Part shown: positions 2,986-29,991 of the stretch, one piece after another
Numbering within the stretch: position 1 is the first letter of the stretch
Layout: each line of letters starts with the position of its first letter
Assembly: GCA_963790415.1 (NCBI GenBank)
Contig: CAWBOK010000001.1
Location: 770,545 to 834,544, forward strand
Source: an uncultured Actinomycetota bacterium
GTDB lineage: Bacteria > Actinomycetota > Thermoleophilia > RBG-16-64-13
Length of the DNA: 64,000 nucleotides
Reading direction: 5' to 3'
Program-made: the position numbers and the translations under genes
The notes under the pieces: generated by a model
Told to the model about the DNA's origin: nothing
Database searches by the model: none
What the model saw: only the letters and a program-made list of their open reading frames with translations

Positions 2986-3418
2986 TCCACCCCGGGACGT
3001 GACTCCCCGTCGGGTCGTGATGTGTCCAGTGCATGAGACCGCCCTGTGCGTTCCACTCGTACGCGCCCTTGAACGAGACGGTGTCGCCAACCCGCAGGGC
3101 ACTCACCCGTGGAGCAATGTCGATATTGTGCGTCACCAAGAGAGTCTGCCCTGAGTCCAGCCGGACGATGAACCGTTGATGCCTCGCACCATCAGTGTCG
3201 TCGGTCACTAGCTGCGTCACCGTTCCTTGCCCCTCGAGTTCCAGATTGCCGGCTCGATCGGCAAAGGCACGCGCAAAACTGGAGTCACCGCCGCTGACGG
3301 GCCTGGCTCCGCTGTCGGCACCTGTTTCGGTCGGGATGGCGGTCGCCGAACAGCCGCACTGCGTGACACCAACCAGACAAGCAACGACGACTGCGAGTGC
3401 GAGCAACAGCCTCTTCAT
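2957..3418 (-). CDS. DUF3465-like secreted lipoprotein
   Basis: 153 aa with lipobox-like signal MKRLLLALAVVVACLVGVTQCGC. Core HQRFIVRLDSGQTLLVTHNIDIAPRV...GDTVSFKGAYEWN. Confidence 0.7.
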   Translation of the reverse strand: MKRLLLALAVVVACLVGVTQCGCSATAIPTETGADSGARPVSGGDSSFARAFADRAGNLELEGQGTVTQLVTDDTDGARHQRFIVRLDSGQTLLVTHNIDIAPRVSALRVGDTVSFKGAYEWNAQGGLMHWTHHDPTGSHVPGWIRHDGRTYQ

Positions 3419-4680
3419 TCCGGATCCTCAACCATCGTGTCTTCTCCCGACCGCCCGAAAGTGGTCCGACATCAGTGCGGCACCCCGAACGTACCACGAG
3501 GTCGCCGCCTTCATCTCTGGTGTTTGTGTTGGGTCTGGCCGCAGTGGCCGACGCAGCCAGCCCGCCGATGGCCAAGTGGGTCGATCCGCTGCCGGTTCCA
3601 CCAGTGGCAACGAAGACGTTCAACAAGTTGATCTCAGGGTGGGCCGACTACTACGAGATCAACATGACGTCCAGCCGGCATCAGTTCAACTCCGACCTGG
3701 GCCCGGCCACAGTCTGGACGTACGGCCAGCCCGGGAAGTCGCCCGTCCTGCTTGGCCCCACGATCATTGCGAAAACGGGCCGGCCGGTGGTGGTCAAATA
3801 CATCAACAACCTTCCGACGGACCCGAGTCTCTTCCCGCTGAAGGCCTCGATCGACTCGACACTGATGGGGTGGGACGTGCCCTCGGGCGCAGCGATCCCG
3901 CACCTCCACGGAGGACACACCGCGGCGCGATTCGATGGGACTCCCGGGCAATGGTGGACAGCCGATGGGGTCAAAGGCCCCGACTATGTAACCAACACCT
4001 TCACGTACGTCAACGACCAGCCGGCTTCGCTGCTCTGGTACCACGACCACACGATGGGGGCCACCCGGTTCAAGCCCTACCTCGGACTGGCCGCGGCCTA
4101 CTTGATCTTCGACAAGGTCGACAACGGCACCACGATCAACGGCCAGCAGGTCCCGTCCGGCTACGGCAAGTACCACCTGCCGCTGGTGATCCAGGAGAAG
4201 CAGTTCAACGCCGACGGCACCTTGTTCTACCCCACAGAAGGCATCAGCTCCGTTCACCCGATATGGGTTCCTGAGTTCTTCGGCGACACTCCGGTCATCA
4301 ACGGCAAGGCCTATCCGTTCCTGGATGCCCAGCCTAGGAGATACCGCCTTCGCCTCCTGAACGGCTCGCAGGCCCGCTTCTACAACCTGCGGTTCAAGTC
4401 GGCCGAGAGTGACCTCCCCTTCTGGATCATTGGATCTGAACAAGGACTCCTCCCCGCCCCGGTGCCCGCCTCGGGATGTCGTGCTGAAGGAGACCATGGT
4501 TCCGGGCTTCGACCCTTCGGAGGAGGTGCCGAGCGAGGTGCTTCTCAACGGCTACCACTTCATGGACCCGACGACGGACGTCATCAAGGCCGGCACCACA
4601 GAGACCTGGCAGTGGATCAACCTCACGGTGGACGCCCACCCGATGCACCCGCACCTGGTGGCCTCCCAGGTGGTTGATGC
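3397..4680 (+). pseudogene. multicopper oxidase (CotA/bilirubin-oxidase type), frameshifted and 3' truncated
   Basis: HLHGGH and WYHDH copper motifs are in the frame of ORF 3397. The continuation LLNGYHF...TWQWINLTVDAHPMHPHLV is in the +1 frame (ORF 4409); the shift is near 4450-4480. The C-terminal HCH copper motif is absent. Confidence 0.7.
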
Positions 4681-4738
4681 GGCCGTTTGTGATCGTGAAA
4701 TAGAGCGAACGCCTCGGCGAACGTCACGGACATGTCTT

Positions 4739-6316: not shown

Positions 6317-6742
6317 CTACGCGCAGTAAACGCGCACGTTGTCGCCGTTCTTGGAATCGACGTCGATCTCCATCTCGCGCAGCGACTCGATCAGCTCCTC
6401 GATGTCCTCCTGCTTGAGGTTAGCGAAGTCGATCGCCATGCCGCTGGCGGCCATCTGTTTGTTGATCTGATCCATCGCCTGGGGAGGAATCAGCGACGTG
6501 AGTTTGAGGCCGGCGCGCACCAGGCCCAGGGGGATCTTGACGTTCACGTTGTCTCCCTCCGTGCTCACCACCTTGACGTACATGAACTTCGGGGGGGCCG
6601 CCGACCCCGACCTTGACGGCGGGTCGGCAACTGCTGTCTGCGTTCCGTGCACATCCATGGCGTCGAGCAGGCGGGAGCCCTCTTCGGCGGTGATCTTGCC
6701 CTCGGCCACCAGACTCAGGATGCGTGTGCGTTCTTCGCCCAT
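6317..6742 (-). CDS. SHOCT-like domain protein (LiaX/YvlB N-terminal type)
   Basis: ATG at 6742 preceded by AAGGAG. N-terminus MGEERTRILSLVAEGKITAEEGSRLLDAM. Last gene of a three-gene operon led by the DUF2089 gene. Confidence 0.6.
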   Translation of the reverse strand: MGEERTRILSLVAEGKITAEEGSRLLDAMDVHGTQTAVADPPSRSGSAAPPKFMYVKVVSTEGDNVNVKIPLGLVRAGLKLTSLIPPQAMDQINKQMAASGMAIDFANLKQEDIEELIESLREMEIDVDSKNGDNVRVYCA

Positions 6743-6783
6743 GACGTACTCCTTTCCTCGCGCGCTCGCGACCAGGCGGCGCG

Positions 6784-7065
6784 TCACCATACCGTCACGT
6801 CGACGGTGCGGCTCTTGTTGTCTACGAACACTTGGGTCCCCCGTGTCTCGCCCAGCGCATCGAGGCAGCCGAGCATGAAGGTCGTGAACCGGTGCGGTCG
6901 TCCCGTCACGAAAAGGACGGCGTCGGCCAACGCCGCGGCCACGATAGCCAACCCGCCCAGGAGCAACAGCAGCGGCCACAGCACGAACACCGGGAGCCAC
7001 AGGTGGAGCTTCCGGCCGCCGGCCTCAGCCACGCGGACGTCGACGACCGCGGGCGGGGCCTTCAC
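6784..7065 (-). CDS. small membrane protein
   Basis: 93 aa with a hydrophobic core LWLPVFVLWPLLLLLGGLAIVAAALADAVLF. Its start overlaps the stop of the upstream gene (ATGA). Confidence 0.5.
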   Translation of the reverse strand: MKAPPAVVDVRVAEAGGRKLHLWLPVFVLWPLLLLLGGLAIVAAALADAVLFVTGRPHRFTTFMLGCLDALGETRGTQVFVDNKSRTVDVTVW

Positions 7066-7421
7066 TGGGCCAACCTCTCGGCCGCCTCGGCCGCGCTGAT
7101 CTCACCGCGTTCCAGCAGGTCCAGGATCTCGTCCCGCTCCGACACCTGCACGACCTGGGCCAACTGCAACTGCTGAACGATGCGGTTCAACCGGTTCTTG
7201 ACCGTGGGGTAGCTGATACCGAACGCCTTCTCCATGAACTTGATCGACCCATGGCAGCGGACGAACTCCGTCACGAACACCTGGTCCTCATAGCGCAGGC
7301 ACGCCAGCGGCGGGAGTTCGAACTCGCCCGCCAAGTCGATGCCCGTGTCGACCAGACGCACGCCGGTCACCAGGAACGGGCGTTCGCCGGTCAGGTCGGT
7401 CAGATCGTGCCAGTCGGCCAT
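7062..7421 (-). CDS. DUF2089-family DNA-binding protein
   Basis: ATG at 7421 preceded by AAGGAGGTGA. Contains the HTH segment FMEKAFGISYPTVKNRLNRI and the tail ILDLLERGEISAAEAAERL. Confidence 0.7.
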   Translation of the reverse strand: MADWHDLTDLTGERPFLVTGVRLVDTGIDLAGEFELPPLACLRYEDQVFVTEFVRCHGSIKFMEKAFGISYPTVKNRLNRIVQQLQLAQVVQVSERDEILDLLERGEISAAEAAERLAQ

Positions 7422-7468
7422 GTGGTCACCTCCTTCGGTTCTTCCCAACTATGGTGCACCCGATTACC

Positions 7469-8373: not shown

Positions 8374-8883
8374 ATGAGGGCGATCGCCGTCTTGCTACTG
8401 CTGACTCTGGTCGCCGCCGTCTTCGGGTGCGGCGGAGGCGACACGACGACCACGACCGCGCCGCCGACCACGACCACCACCCTGACGCCCGCGGCTGAGG
8501 TCGAGAAGGCGCGGGCCCAGCTCGAGACAGACCTGGCCGCGTTCAAAGTGTCGCTCGAAGAACTGCGCACTTTGGGTCTGAGCTCGACGAAAGCCGACTT
8601 CGCCGCCGTCCGCGACACCATCGAGCGCTCCTGGATCGCGGTGAAGCAGTCCGCCACCGCGCTGAAGACGGCGCGGAGCAGCCAGATCCAAGGCGCCGCG
8701 GATGAGCTGCAGGGCCCGGTAGATGCGGTCCAACAGGCCTGGGACGGTCTCGGCACCCTCGTGGACGACGTCCAGAGCGGCACGATCACCGTGGGCGAGG
8801 CGCTCGTAGCGCTCCCTGCGAAGCTGGCCGCGCTGGCCTCGGCCGTAGGAGACCTCTCCGCGGCCGCCGCGAAGGAGGGGTAG
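8374..8883 (+). CDS. hypothetical lipoprotein
   Basis: Signal plus lipobox MRAIAVLLLLTLVAAVFGCGGG, a Thr-rich linker, then helical Ala/Leu-rich sequence. Confidence 0.55.
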   Translation: MRAIAVLLLLTLVAAVFGCGGGDTTTTTAPPTTTTTLTPAAEVEKARAQLETDLAAFKVSLEELRTLGLSSTKADFAAVRDTIERSWIAVKQSATALKTARSSQIQGAADELQGPVDAVQQAWDGLGTLVDDVQSGTITVGEALVALPAKLAALASAVGDLSAAAAKEG

Positions 8884-9029: not shown

Positions 9030-10379
9030 CTACTGCACTACCACGGTCCCCGTCATCGAGGGGTGGATGCCGCAGTGGTACGGCACCGTCCCAGCAGCGG
9101 CGAACGTGAACTGGAACGATTCGCCCGGCGCCACGCTGCCGCTGTCGAACGAGCCGTCGTCGGCCACGATGGTATGGGCCGTCGTGTCCTCGTTGACCCA
9201 GGTCACGGTGTCCCCGGCATTCACCGTGATAGACGCCGGGTCGAAGGCAAGGTTGATGATGGTGACCTGGTCCACGACCGTTGTCGAGGTGGTCGCCGAC
9301 TCAGACGTGGTGGTAGTCGCCGGAGCCTCAGTCGTTGTGGTGGTCGCCGGAGCCTCGGTCGTGGGGGTGGCTGTGGTCGGCGGGGCTGTGGTCGGCGGGG
9401 CTGTCGTCGGAGGCGCCGTGCTCACCGGAGCGGTGCTGCCGTCCGATACCACCACGGCGACGCTCTCACCAGGAGCCACGGAGGTCCCCGCAGCCGGCGA
9501 CTGCGCGACGACCTCGCCCTGGGGCGCACTCGAGGCCGTAGTGCTGGCGGTGCCGGTCAATCCCAAGGCTGCCAGCATGTCTTCAGCCACGTTCTGCTGC
9601 ATGCCCACGAGGTTGGGGACCGCGACGGTGTCCGTGGGTGGTCCCTGGCTCAGTGTCAACGCGACACCGGAGCCTATGTTGGCCTGCGTGCCCCCGACGG
9701 GATCCTGCGCCAGTACGGTGCCTCGGGGCTCGGTGCTCTGTTCCCCTTTGACTCCGCTGATCATGAACCCGGCGGCCTCGAGGGCGTTGACGGCCGGCAA
9801 CGGCAACTGGCCCACCACGTCGGGCACGGTTGCAACAGGGACGTTAGTCGACAGCAGTACGCTCAGCTGGTCGCCCTTCTCAACCGCGGTGCCCGAGGTC
9901 GGATACTGAATCGTGACCAGGCCGGGCGCCACCGCGGTCGTGAACTGGATCCCGCGGACGACGTAAACCATACCTGCTTTCTCAGCCTCAGTCTTGGCCT
10001 GAGCGCTCGAGAGTCCGACGACGGACGGCACGCTGACCCCGCGCGTCAGCACCACGGCAAGGATAGCTACGATGGCCACGACAACGACTGCCACAACCAC
10101 CCAGAACCAGGTACGTTTCCAGAAGGGCTTATCTCCACCCGCCGGGCCGGTTGACATGCCCGTGAATCCGACGCCCGCTCCACCCGCGCCCGTGCCACCT
10201 GTCCCTGGCCCCCCGGGGCTCTTTCCCGGCGGGCGGACAGCCGTGACGTCGGGACCCAATTCAGCACTCGATGCGGCCGCGCCGGCGGCGACCGCCGCGC
10301 CCGCGGCAACAGGAAGCCCGCATTCCTCGCAGGCCTCACTCCCCTCACTGATCGGTGTTCCGCAATTAGCGCATTCCAT
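9030..10379 (-). CDS. zinc-ribbon / TM / 3x PASTA / cupredoxin (type-1 copper) membrane protein
   Basis: ATG at 10379 after GGGAGGA. Domains in order: zinc ribbon MECANCGTPISEGSEACEECG; TM WFWVVVAVVVVAIVAILAVVL; three PASTA-like repeats (VPSVVGLS.., VPDVVGQL.., VPNLVGMQ..); Thr/Pro linker; C-terminal VTWVNEDTTAHT...YHCGIHPSMTG (H, C-x2-H-x2-M ligand pattern). Confidence 0.75.
   Translation of the reverse strand: MECANCGTPISEGSEACEECGLPVAAGAAVAAGAAASSAELGPDVTAVRPPGKSPGGPGTGGTGAGGAGVGFTGMSTGPAGGDKPFWKRTWFWVVVAVVVVAIVAILAVVLTRGVSVPSVVGLSSAQAKTEAEKAGMVYVVRGIQFTTAVAPGLVTIQYPTSGTAVEKGDQLSVLLSTNVPVATVPDVVGQLPLPAVNALEAAGFMISGVKGEQSTEPRGTVLAQDPVGGTQANIGSGVALTLSQGPPTDTVAVPNLVGMQQNVAEDMLAALGLTGTASTTASSAPQGEVVAQSPAAGTSVAPGESVAVVVSDGSTAPVSTAPPTTAPPTTAPPTTATPTTEAPATTTTTEAPATTTTSESATTSTTVVDQVTIINLAFDPASITVNAGDTVTWVNEDTTAHTIVADDGSFDSGSVAPGESFQFTFAAAGTVPYHCGIHPSMTGTVVVQ
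9307..9413 (-). repeat. in-frame tandem repeats encoding the Thr/Pro linker
   Basis: A 27-nt unit occurs twice (9307-9333, 9334-9360; 24/27 identical). A 15-nt unit GGCTGTGGTCGGCGG occurs three times (9369-9413). Together they encode PTTAPPTTAPPTTA... and EAPATTTT repeats. Confidence 0.6.
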
Positions 10380-10514
10380 GAATGGTCCTCCCGACTCGGC
10401 ACTCACCACGAGCCGCAAGGTTCATTGTGCGGCTCGCTCTCACTTCGCTGCTATGGCACTTCGCCACCGACCAGAGATTTCCCCCCTGCGGATTCCATCC
10501 TGGGCCTTCATTCT

Positions 10515-28044: not shown

Positions 28045-29991
28045 CTACCCCGCCACGGTCGCCGTCGCAGCCGCGCCCGCATCCGCGGTCAGGATGCCCC
28101 GCCGGACGAAATCGTCGCTCACGTAGCCCAGGCCCAACGAATCCAGCGTCGTCTTTCGTGGGAATGCCGTCGTTCGTCCACCCCTTGAACTCGTAGTAGG
28201 CGTCGAGCAGCTTCTCTTCGTTCTCCGGTTCCCGCTTCTTCCAATGGTCGGCGGGCGGCTTCTCGTCGACCCGCCGCATGCCCCTGCGGATGTTGAGGGC
28301 CCGTACCAGAGTTGCGGTTGCGTCGCCCGATCTCCCAGAGAGAGGTGTCGTCGAGATCGAACCCGGTCGCATGCGAGATGAACCCGGGCAGGTTGTAGAC
28401 GTGGTACGGCGGCCGGCCACCGAATTGACCCCTGAACGACGACAGGAACGCGCACGTGCCTATGGCGTCGTCGATGTAGTGCATGGTCTCGTTCCAGTCG
28501 GCGATGTTGACCGCCGCCTCAAAAGACTGGTGGGTGCGTGGTTCCCAATCCAGGTACCACTTCTTGAACTTCTCCGGAGCCGCGTCCCACCGGTCGACGA
28601 ACCGCTGTCTCTCTTCCTTGTCGGCGATGGGGATCTGGGGATACGACCCTTCGGTCTGGGTGATGTTCATCTTCTCGCCGGTGGCGTACATGAGGAAGTA
28701 CGGGTAGTTGACCGTGCCCAGCTTGATGGGCACCTGCTCGAACTTCTTCATGGTGTTGTGATCGAACGCCTCGGCGCCCTTGCCGATCTGGCGGGCAGCC
28801 CAGTAGACACCGTTCGCCAGGATGTCGCCGATGCCCTCCCGGCGAACGATCTTCTCGACCAGGTAGAAGAAACGCCCCGCCGTGTCGGGTGGGAATCCCG
28901 GCACGTCGTCGTCGGTGAGGATGCCGGCTTCGTACAACTCGACTGCGAAGGCGAGGAGCTGGGGCGTGGTGAACCCGTCAAGCCCGTATTCCTGGGTGAG
29001 GCTGAGCATGCTGTAGTTGAAGTCCAGTTCCTCATATGCCGCCATGGCATATGTCAGCTTGCTGTAGCACTTGAGCTGGAATATCTGGCGTCCCGGGTAG
29101 CGGATGCCGACATGGCAGTCCTTCGGACAGTTGTAGCAGCCCGTCCACCGCACCTCGTACTTGCGGGTGGTCTCCTCCCACTCCTTGGCGCGCTCCTCGG
29201 TCCATACACCCCTCACGCGATCGCGGGCGTTGCCCCAGGCGAAGTTGTCGACGTGCCACGTCTCGTCGTGCTCGTGCCGGAAGATGCACCCGCAGTCCGG
29301 GTTGTCGTAGATCTCCTTGTACTGCGCGTTGCAGATCTCGAAGAGCTCCGCGGGCCGAGCGACGTTGATGTCCTTCGTGCCTCGAACGGCGATCGCCTTC
29401 AGCCGTTTGTCGCCCATGATCACACCGACGCCCCGGGAGGCGCTGGAGTTGGAGTGCTCGATGGAAGACATGTAGACGCGGTTCTCGCCGGCCAGGCCGA
29501 TGGCCGCCACCTGGGCCTCGGGCTGCTTCAACTCCTCCTTGATCAGCGCGCCGGTCTCTATCGCGCCCTTGCCCCGGAGATGCGTGGCGTCACGGATCTC
29601 TATCTTGTCGTTGTGGATCCACAGATAGACCAGATCGTCCGCCTTACCGCGGATCACGATCTTGTCGAAGCCGGCATGCTTGAGTTCCGGCCCGAAGAAT
29701 CCGCCGAAGATGGAATGCGAATACAGGTTGGTCTGCGGCAGAGAAGGTGTCGACACAGGTACGATTGGCGCCGGGGACGGGCGTGCCATGCAGGATACCC
29801 GTGCTGAAGATGAGCAGATTGTCGGGCGAGAAGGGTTCGACGTCGGGGCCGACCCTGTCCCACAGTATCTTCGCGGCCGTGCCCTGGCCCCCCAAGTGCA
29901 GCGCGGTCAACCTCGGGTCGGTCTCTACCCTCTCGAGGCTTCCTCGGGACAGATCGACCTCCAGGTTGAACCCTGTCTCTGCGTACCTCAT
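28045..29991 (-). pseudogene. bamB: tungsten-pterin aldehyde:ferredoxin-oxidoreductase-family subunit (BamB-like), three frame disruptions
   Basis: ATG at 29991. MRYAETGFNLEVDLSRGSLERVETDPRL...GTPVPGANRTCVDTFS / PQTNLYSHSIFGGFFGPELKHAGFDKIVIRGK...(about 520 aa).../ TLVRALNIRRGMRRVDEKPPADHWKK...GWTNDGIPTK / TTLDSLGLGYVSDDFVRRGIL. +1 shifts near 29743, 28311 and 28153. N- and C-terminal strings closely resemble BamB as I recall it. Confidence 0.8.

What the first reader, a model, noticed from the sequence alone, without database searches (positions are those of the whole stretch)
9030..10379. Unusual domain architecture: zinc ribbon - TM - 3x PASTA - Thr/Pro linker - type-1 copper cupredoxin
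PASTA domains are known almost exclusively from PBP2x-type penicillin-binding proteins and PknB-type kinases, where they bind muropeptides.

Here three PASTA-like repeats are tethered to the membrane by a cytoplasmic CxxC...CxxC ribbon. They end not in an enzyme but in a blue-copper domain with the full ligand set (H in TTAHT; C, H, M in YHCGIHPSM).

This suggests an electron-transfer protein positioned in or on the cell wall. I am not aware of this arrangement being described.
Basis: partly seen in the sequence, partly recalled or inferred. Interest (0 to 1): 0.6.

Follow-up and report, generated by a model that had tools for sequence, protein, structure and literature searches.

The report
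PASTA-stalked membrane-anchored blue copper protein
This gene encodes a membrane protein that holds a small blue-copper electron-carrier domain outside the cell on a stalk of three cell-wall-binding (PASTA) modules, a real but very rare and undescribed domain combination whose redox partner is still unknown.

Summary
Window 9033-10379 (-) encodes a 449-aa protein with these parts, in order:
- a CxxC...CxxC zinc ribbon
- a disordered Gly/Ala/Pro stretch
- one transmembrane helix
- three PASTA domains
- a 50-residue Thr/Pro linker
- an amicyanin-like type-1 copper domain

Pfam scores, AlphaFold models and Foldseek matches all agree. The copper ligands H402, C436, H439 and M442 are invariant in all relatives.

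The fusion is real. About a dozen independent metagenome sequences show the same architecture, and both the PASTA and the copper parts are under purifying selection.

It is very rare. I found three clusters at 50% identity among the best-scoring hits in 1.84 billion representatives. None of 60 related genomes has it, and no paper describes it.

Its copper domain is closest to lipoprotein-anchored cupredoxins of the same genus and family. Its scaffold is shared with one paralog in the same genome that carries a different C-terminal domain.

The best reading is an anchor swap: a tethered single-electron carrier moved from a lipid anchor onto a PASTA stalk in the cell-wall zone. The redox partner and the role of the PASTA modules remain inferred, and gene neighbourhood gives no clue.

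This is a new variant of known kinds, of moderate interest.

The parts
9030..10379 (-). Whole gene (449 codons plus stop) for the PASTA-cupredoxin membrane protein
   Evidence: ORF list; translation; full-length relatives at 66-89% identity
10386..10392 (-). Shine-Dalgarno-like GGGAGGA, 6 nt upstream of the ATG
   Evidence: Read directly from the sequence
10308..10379 (-). Cytoplasmic zinc ribbon, residues 1-24 (C3, C6, C17, C20)
   Evidence: Pfam Zn_Ribbon_1, E 5e-4, below cut-off. The motif is kept in the distant members P0011 and P0165. It is degraded in the P0006/P0009 sublineage.
10116..10307 (-). Low-complexity Gly/Ala/Pro cytoplasmic segment, residues 25-88, predicted disordered
   Evidence: AF2 pLDDT below 50 over residues 25-85; poorly conserved and variable in length
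10044..10115 (-). Single transmembrane helix, residues 89-112, N-in/C-out by the positive-inside rule
   Evidence: Hydropathy maximum 3.4 over 19 residues, with K84/K88/R89 before it; helix 90-112 in the AF2 model
9834..10034 (-). PASTA repeat 1, residues 116-182
   Evidence: Pfam PASTA; own HMM boundaries; Foldseek matches to PrkC/PknB PASTA
9633..9830 (-). PASTA repeat 2, residues 184-249
9435..9626 (-). PASTA repeat 3, residues 252-315
9285..9434 (-). Thr/Pro-rich linker, residues 316-365
   Evidence: Composition over residues 314-362: 20 T, 10 P and 10 A out of 49; pLDDT below 50; present in all family members
9033..9284 (-). Type-1 copper cupredoxin domain, residues 366-449. Ligand codons: H402 (9174-9176), C436 (9072-9074), H439 (9063-9065), M442 (9054-9056).
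   Evidence: Pfam; AF2 pLDDT above 93 for the fold; Foldseek TM 0.7-0.8 to amicyanin/plastocyanin/9cck; ligand alignment; ligands invariant

Best explanation
The gene encodes a type-II (N-in, C-out) single-pass membrane protein. A small zinc ribbon and a disordered tail lie in the cytoplasm. Outside the membrane, three PknB-type PASTA domains form a stalk. A roughly 50-residue Thr/Pro linker then carries a mononuclear type-1 (blue) copper domain with an amicyanin-length ligand loop (His...Cys-x2-His-x2-Met).

I read it as a tethered single-electron carrier. Its usual lipid anchor (lipobox plus Thr-rich linker, as in its closest relatives in the same genus and family) has been exchanged for a zinc ribbon-TM-PASTA scaffold that this lineage also uses for another C-terminal domain.

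The copper domain would shuttle electrons between extracytoplasmic redox proteins. The genome has three heme-copper oxidase genes, a CuA subunit II and many c-type cytochromes. The PASTA stalk would hold the carrier in the peptidoglycan zone and may bind peptidoglycan.

Shown: the architecture, the intact and conserved copper site, the extracytoplasmic placement predicted from the sequence, purifying selection, rarity, and the relationship to lipoprotein cupredoxins and to the scaffold paralog.

Inferred: electron transfer as the activity, the identity of the partners, peptidoglycan binding by these PASTA repeats, and any benefit of the stalk.
For: Domains and folds:
- Domain scores.
- PASTA fold matches to PrkC and PknB, PDB 3py9, 3m9g, 5e12.
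- Cupredoxin model with pLDDT 88 matching amicyanin, plastocyanin and the C-terminal cupredoxin of 9cck at TM 0.7-0.8 and rmsd 1-2 A.
- Ligands align with those of amicyanin with an identical loop length and are invariant in 9 family members.
- TM helix and positive-inside charges.

Reality of the fusion:
- The same architecture appears in independent JGI, ENA and Logan assemblies.
- It is also kept in members at 46-53% identity, which retain the zinc ribbon.

Selection:
- dN/dS is 0.09-0.17 for PASTA and 0.21-0.27 for the cupredoxin.

Anchor swap:
- The nearest cupredoxins are lipoproteins with a lipobox and a T/G-rich linker, ending in GTVVVQ.
- In the tree the fusion domains sit in one cluster with the same-genus and same-family lipoprotein cupredoxins.
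- The same-genus lipoprotein's best match in this genome is the fusion's copper domain (65% aa), while the syntenic site lacks a cupredoxin.

Scaffold:
- The paralog at G000 C3:545623-547539 has a zinc ribbon, a TM helix and 3 PASTA domains (38% identity, gapless over 226 aa) plus a T/P linker, with a different C-terminal domain.

Possible partners in the genome:
- COX1 x3, COX2, 12 cytochrome c domain matches, and cytochrome c maturation genes.
Against: - No redox partner is genetically linked. Neighbours here are DUF998, a VOC protein, a lipoprotein and DUF1269.
- Relatives' contigs share no synteny around the gene.
- The related lipoprotein cupredoxins sit among unrelated genes: GT4, NlpC/P60, nitroreductase, HAD, Ddl.
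- A rigid stalk of three PASTA domains would hold the carrier away from membrane oxidases unless the linker folds back.
- Muropeptide binding by these repeats is untested.
- The zinc ribbon is lost in one sublineage, so its role is unclear.
- No RNA run could be listed that holds the gene.
- The fusion is absent from 60 related genomes, including two of the same genus, so it is dispensable.
Confidence: 0.55

Rival explanations
1. Neutral domain shuffling. The protein is an ordinary tethered blue copper carrier, and the PASTA repeats serve only as an inert spacer and anchor. They have no peptidoglycan-related role, and wall positioning brings no special benefit. The fusion arose by recombination between Thr-codon-rich linker sequences.
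For: - T/P-rich stretches occur in both putative parents: the lipoprotein cupredoxin linkers and the C-terminal tails of PknB-type kinases of the family.
- The fusion is rare and dispensable.
- Zinc ribbon-TM anchors followed by T/S-rich stretches are common in this genome, in at least 8 ORFs.
Against: - The PASTA repeats are the most strongly constrained part of the protein (dN/dS 0.09-0.17).
- All three are kept in members down to 46% identity.
- An inert spacer would be expected to drift or shrink.
Confidence: 0.2
2. Transmembrane sensor. The copper domain senses copper or redox state outside the cell, PASTA senses wall fragments, and the signal passes through the helix to the cytoplasmic zinc ribbon, which binds a regulator (anti-sigma-like).
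For: - The single-pass layout with an N-terminal cytoplasmic zinc-binding motif resembles many anti-sigma factors and sensors (own knowledge).
- The zinc ribbon is kept in distant members.
- A Fur-like gene and a multicopper oxidase remnant lie within 5 kb.
Against: - The zinc ribbon cysteines are lost in P0006 and P0009, while PASTA and cupredoxin stay constrained.
- The cytoplasmic part is mostly low-complexity and disordered.
- No sigma factor or regulator is adjacent, and the neighbourhood is not conserved.
- The same ribbon-TM anchor heads many unrelated exported proteins here.
Confidence: 0.1
3. Copper handling rather than electron transfer: a CopI-like copper-resistance or copper-delivery cupredoxin held in the wall.
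For: - A weak NCBIfam hit to CopI (E 0.041).
- A multicopper oxidase remnant 4.3 kb away.
Against: - The CopI hit is far below cut-off (13.7 against 280 bits) and covers only residues 344-396.
- There is no His/Met-rich segment. The only His residues are 402, 435 and 439.
- The oxidase is broken, and it is not found next to relatives.
- The best sequence and fold matches are electron carriers.
Confidence: 0.08
4. Assembly artefact: two neighbouring genes joined by an indel in an error-prone assembly.
For: Earlier notes on this genome report many single-base insertion errors. Two other cupredoxin genes in the genome look frameshifted or truncated.
Against: - The same uninterrupted architecture is found in about a dozen sequences from separate JGI, ENA and Logan assemblies at 46-91% identity.
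- There is codon-level purifying selection across the junction.
Confidence: 0.01

Closest known systems
Extracellular PASTA region of PknB/PrkC/StkP Ser/Thr kinases (PDB 2kui, 5e12, 3py9, 3m9g)
   Same: - A single TM helix followed by tandem PASTA repeats outside the membrane.
- Best sequence and fold matches.
- NCBIfam PknB_PASTA_kin aligns from the TM helix to the last PASTA (residues 89-312 against model positions 331-563).
- PknB PASTA domains bind muropeptides and localise the kinase (PMC3145798, abstract).
   Different: - There is no kinase domain: 127 bits against a cut-off of 450, and no HRDxKPxN motif.
- The cytoplasmic part is a zinc ribbon plus a disordered tail.
- The repeats are followed by a redox domain.
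Amicyanin / plastocyanin-type type-1 blue copper proteins
   Same: - Greek-key cupredoxin fold.
- His...Cys-x2-His-x2-Met ligand set with amicyanin's short loop.
- About 30-35% identity.
   Different: - Scores are below the equivalog cut-offs for amicyanin (40.9 against 110.2) and plastocyanin (41.5 against 87.85).
- It is not a soluble periplasmic protein.
Lipid- or helix-tethered blue copper carriers (auracyanins of Chloroflexi, halocyanin of haloarchaea) and the lipoprotein cupredoxins of this actinobacterial family
   Same: - A cupredoxin held at the outer face of the membrane by an N-terminal anchor and a flexible Thr/Gly-rich tether.
- The nearest relatives of the copper domain are such lipoproteins.
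- Auracyanin acts as the periplasmic electron acceptor of alternative complex III (PMC10873879, abstract).
   Different: - There is no signal peptide or lipobox.
- Three folded PASTA domains are inserted between the anchor and the tether.
Paralog in the same genome, G000 C3:545623-547539 (family P0270-P0272)
   Same: Zinc ribbon, TM helix, three collinear PASTA repeats (38% identity without gaps) and a T/P linker. Its cytoplasmic insert is also present in the fusion family member P0011.
   Different: The C-terminal domain is a ~190-residue module with no Pfam or PDB sequence match instead of a cupredoxin.
Enzymes with a fused C-terminal cupredoxin (Nitrosopumilus maritimus NirK-like multicopper oxidase, PDB 9cck; Thermus scotoductus NirK, 6hbe)
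   Same: The best PDB sequence match of the copper domain (E 3e-19, 9cck) is a cupredoxin fused to another module.
   Different: There the fusion partner is the enzyme the cupredoxin is fused to. Here the partner is a non-catalytic wall-binding stalk.

Membership tests
PASTA domain (Pfam PF03793) | Sequence profile match above the gathering score, in tandem repeats | tested here: met
   117.2 bits against 23.2, three repeats
PASTA domain (Pfam PF03793) | Small alpha/beta fold (one helix packed on a three-stranded sheet) like PknB/PBP2x PASTA | tested here: met
   AF2 pLDDT 70-88 with one helix plus strands per repeat; Foldseek top hits 3py9, 3m9g, 5e12, 2kui, probability 1.00
PASTA domain (Pfam PF03793) | Binding of muropeptides, lipid II or beta-lactams | not testable with these tools
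   Needs binding assays
PASTA Ser/Thr kinase (PknB/Stk1, NCBIfam NF033483) | N-terminal Hanks-type kinase domain | tested here: not met
   127 bits against a cut-off of 450; only model positions 331-563 matched; no HRDxKPxN or DFG motif
Class B penicillin-binding protein (PBP2x/SpoVD) | Transpeptidase domain with SxxK and KTG motifs | tested here: not met
   The SpoVD model matches only its last PASTA (18.8 against 688 bits); no KTG-type signature
Type-1 blue copper protein (Pfam PF00127 / PF13473) | Profile match above the gathering score | tested here: met
   42.8 against 21.2 and 43.8 against 27
Type-1 blue copper protein (Pfam PF00127 / PF13473) | Ligand set His, Cys, His, Met at the canonical positions | tested here: met
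   H402, C436, H439 and M442 align with the amicyanin ligand positions; invariant in 9 family members
Type-1 blue copper protein (Pfam PF00127 / PF13473) | Greek-key beta-sandwich cupredoxin fold | tested here: met
   Model pLDDT above 93 over the fold; TM 0.7-0.8 and rmsd 1-2 A to amicyanin, plastocyanin and 9cck
Type-1 blue copper protein (Pfam PF00127 / PF13473) | Copper binding, blue absorbance, reversible one-electron redox | not testable with these tools
   Needs purified protein
Amicyanin proper (TIGR02657) | Equivalog score and a methylamine dehydrogenase context | tested here: not met
   40.9 against 110.2 bits; no such genes among the neighbours
Lipoprotein-tethered cupredoxin (as in same-family relatives; auracyanin A / halocyanin type) | Signal peptide with a lipobox cysteine | tested here: not met
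   The N-terminus is a zinc ribbon and the only other Cys is ligand C436. Relatives do carry lipoboxes such as VGCGG and LVGCSS.
Zinc ribbon (Pfam PF13240/PF13248) | Two CxxC knuckles and a profile match | tested here: inconclusive
   The motif C3-x2-C6...C17-x2-C20 is present, but scores are 20.3 and 19.5 against cut-offs of 25 and 27. It is conserved in most members but not all.

The most novel reading that the evidence does not exclude
The PASTA stalk and long Thr/Pro linker place a high-potential copper centre within or beyond the peptidoglycan layer of a monoderm sediment bacterium. There it would act as a wall-spanning electron relay between extracellular or wall-associated donors or acceptors (for example reduced metals or humics) and the membrane respiratory chain. 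This would be a copper-based counterpart of the wall-embedded multihaem cytochromes proposed for Gram-positive metal reducers. More generally, zinc ribbon-TM-PASTA3-T/P would be a lineage-specific 'display scaffold' that presents interchangeable functional heads in the cell wall.
Probability: 0.12. Interest if true: 0.75.

Novelty: new variant of a known kind. Interest (0 to 1): 0.45.

Why it matters
PASTA domains are studied almost only as sensors attached to kinases or to penicillin-binding proteins. Blue copper carriers are studied as soluble or lipid-tethered proteins.

This family shows that a PASTA stalk can be used to hold an unrelated functional head, here a redox centre, outside the membrane of a monoderm bacterium. 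The same scaffold carries a second, unknown head in the same genome.

If the PASTA part binds peptidoglycan, this would be a simple natural example of targeting an electron carrier to the cell wall. That bears on how Gram-positive-type cells move electrons across a thick wall.

It also gives a clean pair for experiments. The lipoprotein form in a sister species and the PASTA-anchored form here carry closely related copper domains on different tethers.

The practical impact is limited by rarity. The family is confined to an uncultured freshwater-sediment actinobacterial lineage, and no partner is known.

Tried and rejected
- Gene neighbourhood as a guide to the redox partner gave nothing:
  - The window's neighbours are unrelated.
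  - Contigs of relatives share no synteny.
  - Neighbours of the related lipoprotein cupredoxins in four syntenic MAG loci and in the same-genus contig are non-respiratory.
- A link to the nearby multicopper oxidase remnant (window ~3397-4700) was rejected. It is frameshifted and is absent next to relatives. Separately, a genome-wide search with PF07732 found no Cu-oxidase_3 domain.
- Assembly chimera was rejected because of the independent relatives.
- Literature searches for PASTA plus cupredoxin, plastocyanin or blue copper found nothing relevant.
- No RNA sequencing run could be listed that holds the gene.
- The earlier-findings index had no look-alike sequences.
- The C-terminal domain of the scaffold paralog had no Pfam or PDB sequence match.
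- The first full-length AF2 model was poor for the copper-site loop. A second model of the C-terminal domain with a 45-sequence alignment fixed this.
- Taxonomy could not be resolved beyond Actinomycetota.
Full report
**1. What is in the sequence**

The finding's coordinates lie in an ORF at 9030-10418 on the minus strand. The start is the ATG at 10379. A GGGAGGA lies 6 nt upstream, and relatives start with the same Met-Glu-Cys-x-Asn-Cys. The product, P0001, is 449 aa.

Pfam gives three PASTA repeats (117 bits, cut-off 23.2), Cupredoxin_1 (43.8 against 27) and Copper-bind (42.8 against 21.2). The zinc-ribbon models fall just under their cut-offs.

NCBIfam aligns residues 89-312 with the TM-plus-PASTA half of the PknB/Stk1 kinase model, but at 127 bits against a cut-off of 450. 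The kinase half is therefore missing.

Other features read from the sequence:
- The only strongly hydrophobic segment is residues ~89-112, with Lys/Lys/Arg on its N-terminal side. This predicts N-in, C-out topology, as in PknB.
- Residues 316-365 are a Thr/Pro/Ala linker.
- The protein has five cysteines: four in the ribbon, plus C436.
- It has three histidines: 402, 435 and 439.

**2. Structure**

The full-length AlphaFold model has a low overall score (pLDDT 64). The reason is that residues 25-85 and 317-372 are predicted disordered. The TM helix and the three PASTA repeats are confident (70-88).

Foldseek against the PDB returns the extracellular PASTA regions of S. aureus PrkC and M. tuberculosis PknB first, then the PBP PASTA domains, then cupredoxins.

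A second model covered the last 101 residues and used 45 homologous domains. It reaches pLDDT above 93 across the fold. It superposes on amicyanin, plastocyanin and the C-terminal cupredoxin of a Nitrosopumilus NirK-like oxidase, with TM 0.7-0.8 and rmsd 1-2 A.

The HMMER alignment to amicyanin places H402, C436, H439 and M442 on the four copper ligands. The loop has the same short Cys-x2-His-x2-Met spacing.

**3. Is the fusion real, and how common is it?**

A word-indexed search of 5.8 billion proteins found ten clusters (P0002-P0011) with both PASTA and cupredoxin Pfam domains. All come from metagenomes (JGI, ENA, Logan). The only names given by a source are 'beta-lactam-binding protein with PASTA domain'.

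An exhaustive phmmer run over 1.84 billion 50%-identity representatives added one more, P0165.

I scanned all 269 retrieved proteins with my own PASTA and cupredoxin HMMs. Only 12 had both domains, all with the same order of three PASTA then one cupredoxin. They fall into three 50% clusters.

Only the 150 best-scoring hits of the phmmer run were listed. More distant independent fusions therefore cannot be excluded.

Distribution in genomes:
- None of 60 related genomes has the fusion. The set was 2 of the same genus, 34 of the same family and 24 of the same class. They have PknB-type kinases and separate ~140-160 aa cupredoxins instead.
- A pattern scan of 185,579 species-representative genomes matched only the cupredoxin part in its best 80 loci.
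- No paper in the library combines the terms 'PASTA domain' and 'cupredoxin', and a follow-up search found nothing relevant.

Because the same uninterrupted architecture recurs in separate assemblies at 46-91% identity, an assembly chimera is excluded. Earlier notes had flagged indel errors in this genome.

**4. Conservation**

The copper ligands are invariant, and many PASTA core positions are too.

| Region | Pairwise dN/dS against two relatives |
|---|---|
| PASTA block | 0.09-0.17 |
| Cupredoxin | 0.21-0.27 |
| Linker and cytoplasmic tail | higher |

The zinc-ribbon cysteines are kept in most members. That includes the two distant ones: P0011, and P0165, whose true start lies upstream of the called one. 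They are degraded in the P0006/P0009 sublineage, where the ribbon shows dN/dS above 1.

**5. Where the parts came from**

*The copper domain.* Its closest relatives are small lipoproteins with a signal peptide, a lipobox cysteine, a Thr/Gly-rich tether and a cupredoxin ending in GTVVVQ. They occur in same-genus and same-family genomes and in named soil MAGs.
- A tree of 54 domains is weakly resolved, with only 84 columns. It puts all six fusion domains in one cluster with the same-genus and same-family lipoprotein cupredoxins. A single origin of the fusion is not ruled out.
- The same-genus contig carrying the lipoprotein gene is syntenic with contig C6 of this genome. The C6 site holds no cupredoxin.
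- The lipoprotein's best match in this genome is the fusion's copper domain, at 65% aa identity.

*The scaffold.* The same genome encodes a paralog at C3:545623-547539. It has a zinc ribbon, a TM helix, three PASTA repeats (38% identical to P0001 over 226 residues without a gap) and a T/P linker. Its C-terminal domain is a different ~190-residue module with no Pfam or PDB sequence match.
- That paralog family is equally rare, with three clusters.
- Its cytoplasmic insert is shared with fusion member P0011.
- PknB-type kinases of related genomes end in T/P-rich tails after the last PASTA.
- At least eight other ORFs in this genome start with a zinc ribbon, one TM helix and a T/S-rich stretch.

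Taken together, this points to an anchor swap. A cupredoxin with its Thr-rich tether was joined to a zinc ribbon-TM-PASTA scaffold. Recombination within Thr-codon repeats may have done this, but that mechanism is my inference.

**6. Function**

An intact, conserved type-1 copper site of the amicyanin/plastocyanin kind is best explained as a one-electron carrier. The topology places it outside the membrane.

The genome encodes plausible partners:
- three heme-copper oxidase catalytic subunits
- one CuA subunit II
- twelve matches to a cytochrome c domain, including a four-domain protein next to one oxidase
- cytochrome c maturation genes

Gene neighbourhood gives no link, however. This holds in the window, in contigs of relatives, which share no synteny, and around the related lipoprotein cupredoxins. 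The nearby multicopper oxidase is a frameshifted remnant and is not conserved next to relatives. A genome-wide PF07732 search found no Cu-oxidase_3 domain.

The organism comes from freshwater sediment and wetland samples. According to earlier notes it carries an anaerobic benzoyl-CoA reductase operon, so it probably lives at oxic-anoxic interfaces.

On geometry, from my own knowledge of PknB PASTA rods, three PASTA domains span roughly 10 nm. A 50-residue extended linker can add up to about 15 nm. The copper domain could therefore reach back to the membrane surface or out through the wall. Which of the two matters is unknown.

The strong constraint on the PASTA repeats argues that they do more than fill space. 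Peptidoglycan binding, as shown for PknB (PMC3145798, abstract), is the obvious candidate, but it is untested.

**7. Rivals**

- A sensor reading is weakened by loss of the ribbon cysteines in one sublineage, by the disordered tail, by the lack of any adjacent regulator, and by the generic use of this anchor.
- A copper-handling (CopI-like) reading rests on one far-sub-threshold hit and a broken neighbouring oxidase.
- A purely neutral spacer reading remains possible, but it fits poorly with the constraint on PASTA.

**8. Verdict**

The protein belongs to neither the PASTA kinases nor the PBPs, and it is not amicyanin proper. It is a new, very rare architecture built from known domains. It is best described as a blue copper carrier whose lipid tether was replaced by a PASTA stalk. 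That stalk is part of a small lineage-specific scaffold family with exchangeable C-terminal heads.

Interest is moderate. The architecture is new and offers a neat test system. Against that, it is confined to one uncultured lineage, and its partner and physiological role are unknown.

Noticed in passing
G000 C3:545623-547539 (outside the window): Paralog with the same zinc ribbon-TM-3xPASTA-T/P linker scaffold. It also has an extra cytoplasmic domain and a ~190-aa C-terminal domain with no Pfam or PDB sequence match. Only three clusters of it exist in 5.8 billion proteins.
   Followed up: partly
window 3397-4700 (+): Multicopper-oxidase-like gene split by a frameshift and lacking its C-terminal part, 4.3 kb from the PASTA-cupredoxin gene. 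It is not found next to relatives of that gene.
   Followed up: partly
G000 C1:~28735-28786: Isolated 18-codon cupredoxin C-terminus (YHCGIHPQMKGTVVVQ, then a stop) with no recognisable cupredoxin frame upstream. It may be a remnant of another copy.
   Followed up: partly
G000 C9:569617-570084 (-): A third cupredoxin gene whose copper-site loop reads CTMHPYDHGAG. It looks like a single-base frameshift just after the second ligand His, in line with the indel errors reported for this assembly.
   Followed up: no
L095:9279-9647, and G000 C8:79130, C8:211797, C1:27356, C9:2397: A ~122-aa PLDc_N/SHOCT gene directly precedes the related gene in one relative. It is present in at least four copies (82-86% nt identity) in this genome, so it is a multi-copy and possibly mobile small gene.
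   Followed up: no
window 8374-8883 (+): Convergent neighbour encoding a lipoprotein (lipobox VFGCGGG) with a TTTTTAPPTTTTT tether and a helical domain without a Pfam match. The same tether style appears in the cupredoxin lipoproteins.
   Followed up: no
window 6317-7448 (-): A run of three small genes: DUF2089 HTH with a SHOCT-like C-terminus, a small membrane protein, and a SHOCT-like protein.
   Followed up: no
L088-L093 (PknB-type kinases of same-family genomes): These PASTA kinases end in extracellular Thr/Pro-rich tails after the fourth PASTA. That arrangement could favour recombination with other Thr-rich linkers.
   Followed up: no
G000 C6:73852-74923 (-): At the site syntenic to the same-genus lipoprotein cupredoxin there is instead a zinc ribbon-Pro-rich-TM-Thr-rich protein, apparently frameshifted, next to a ParE/RelE-like small gene.
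   Followed up: no
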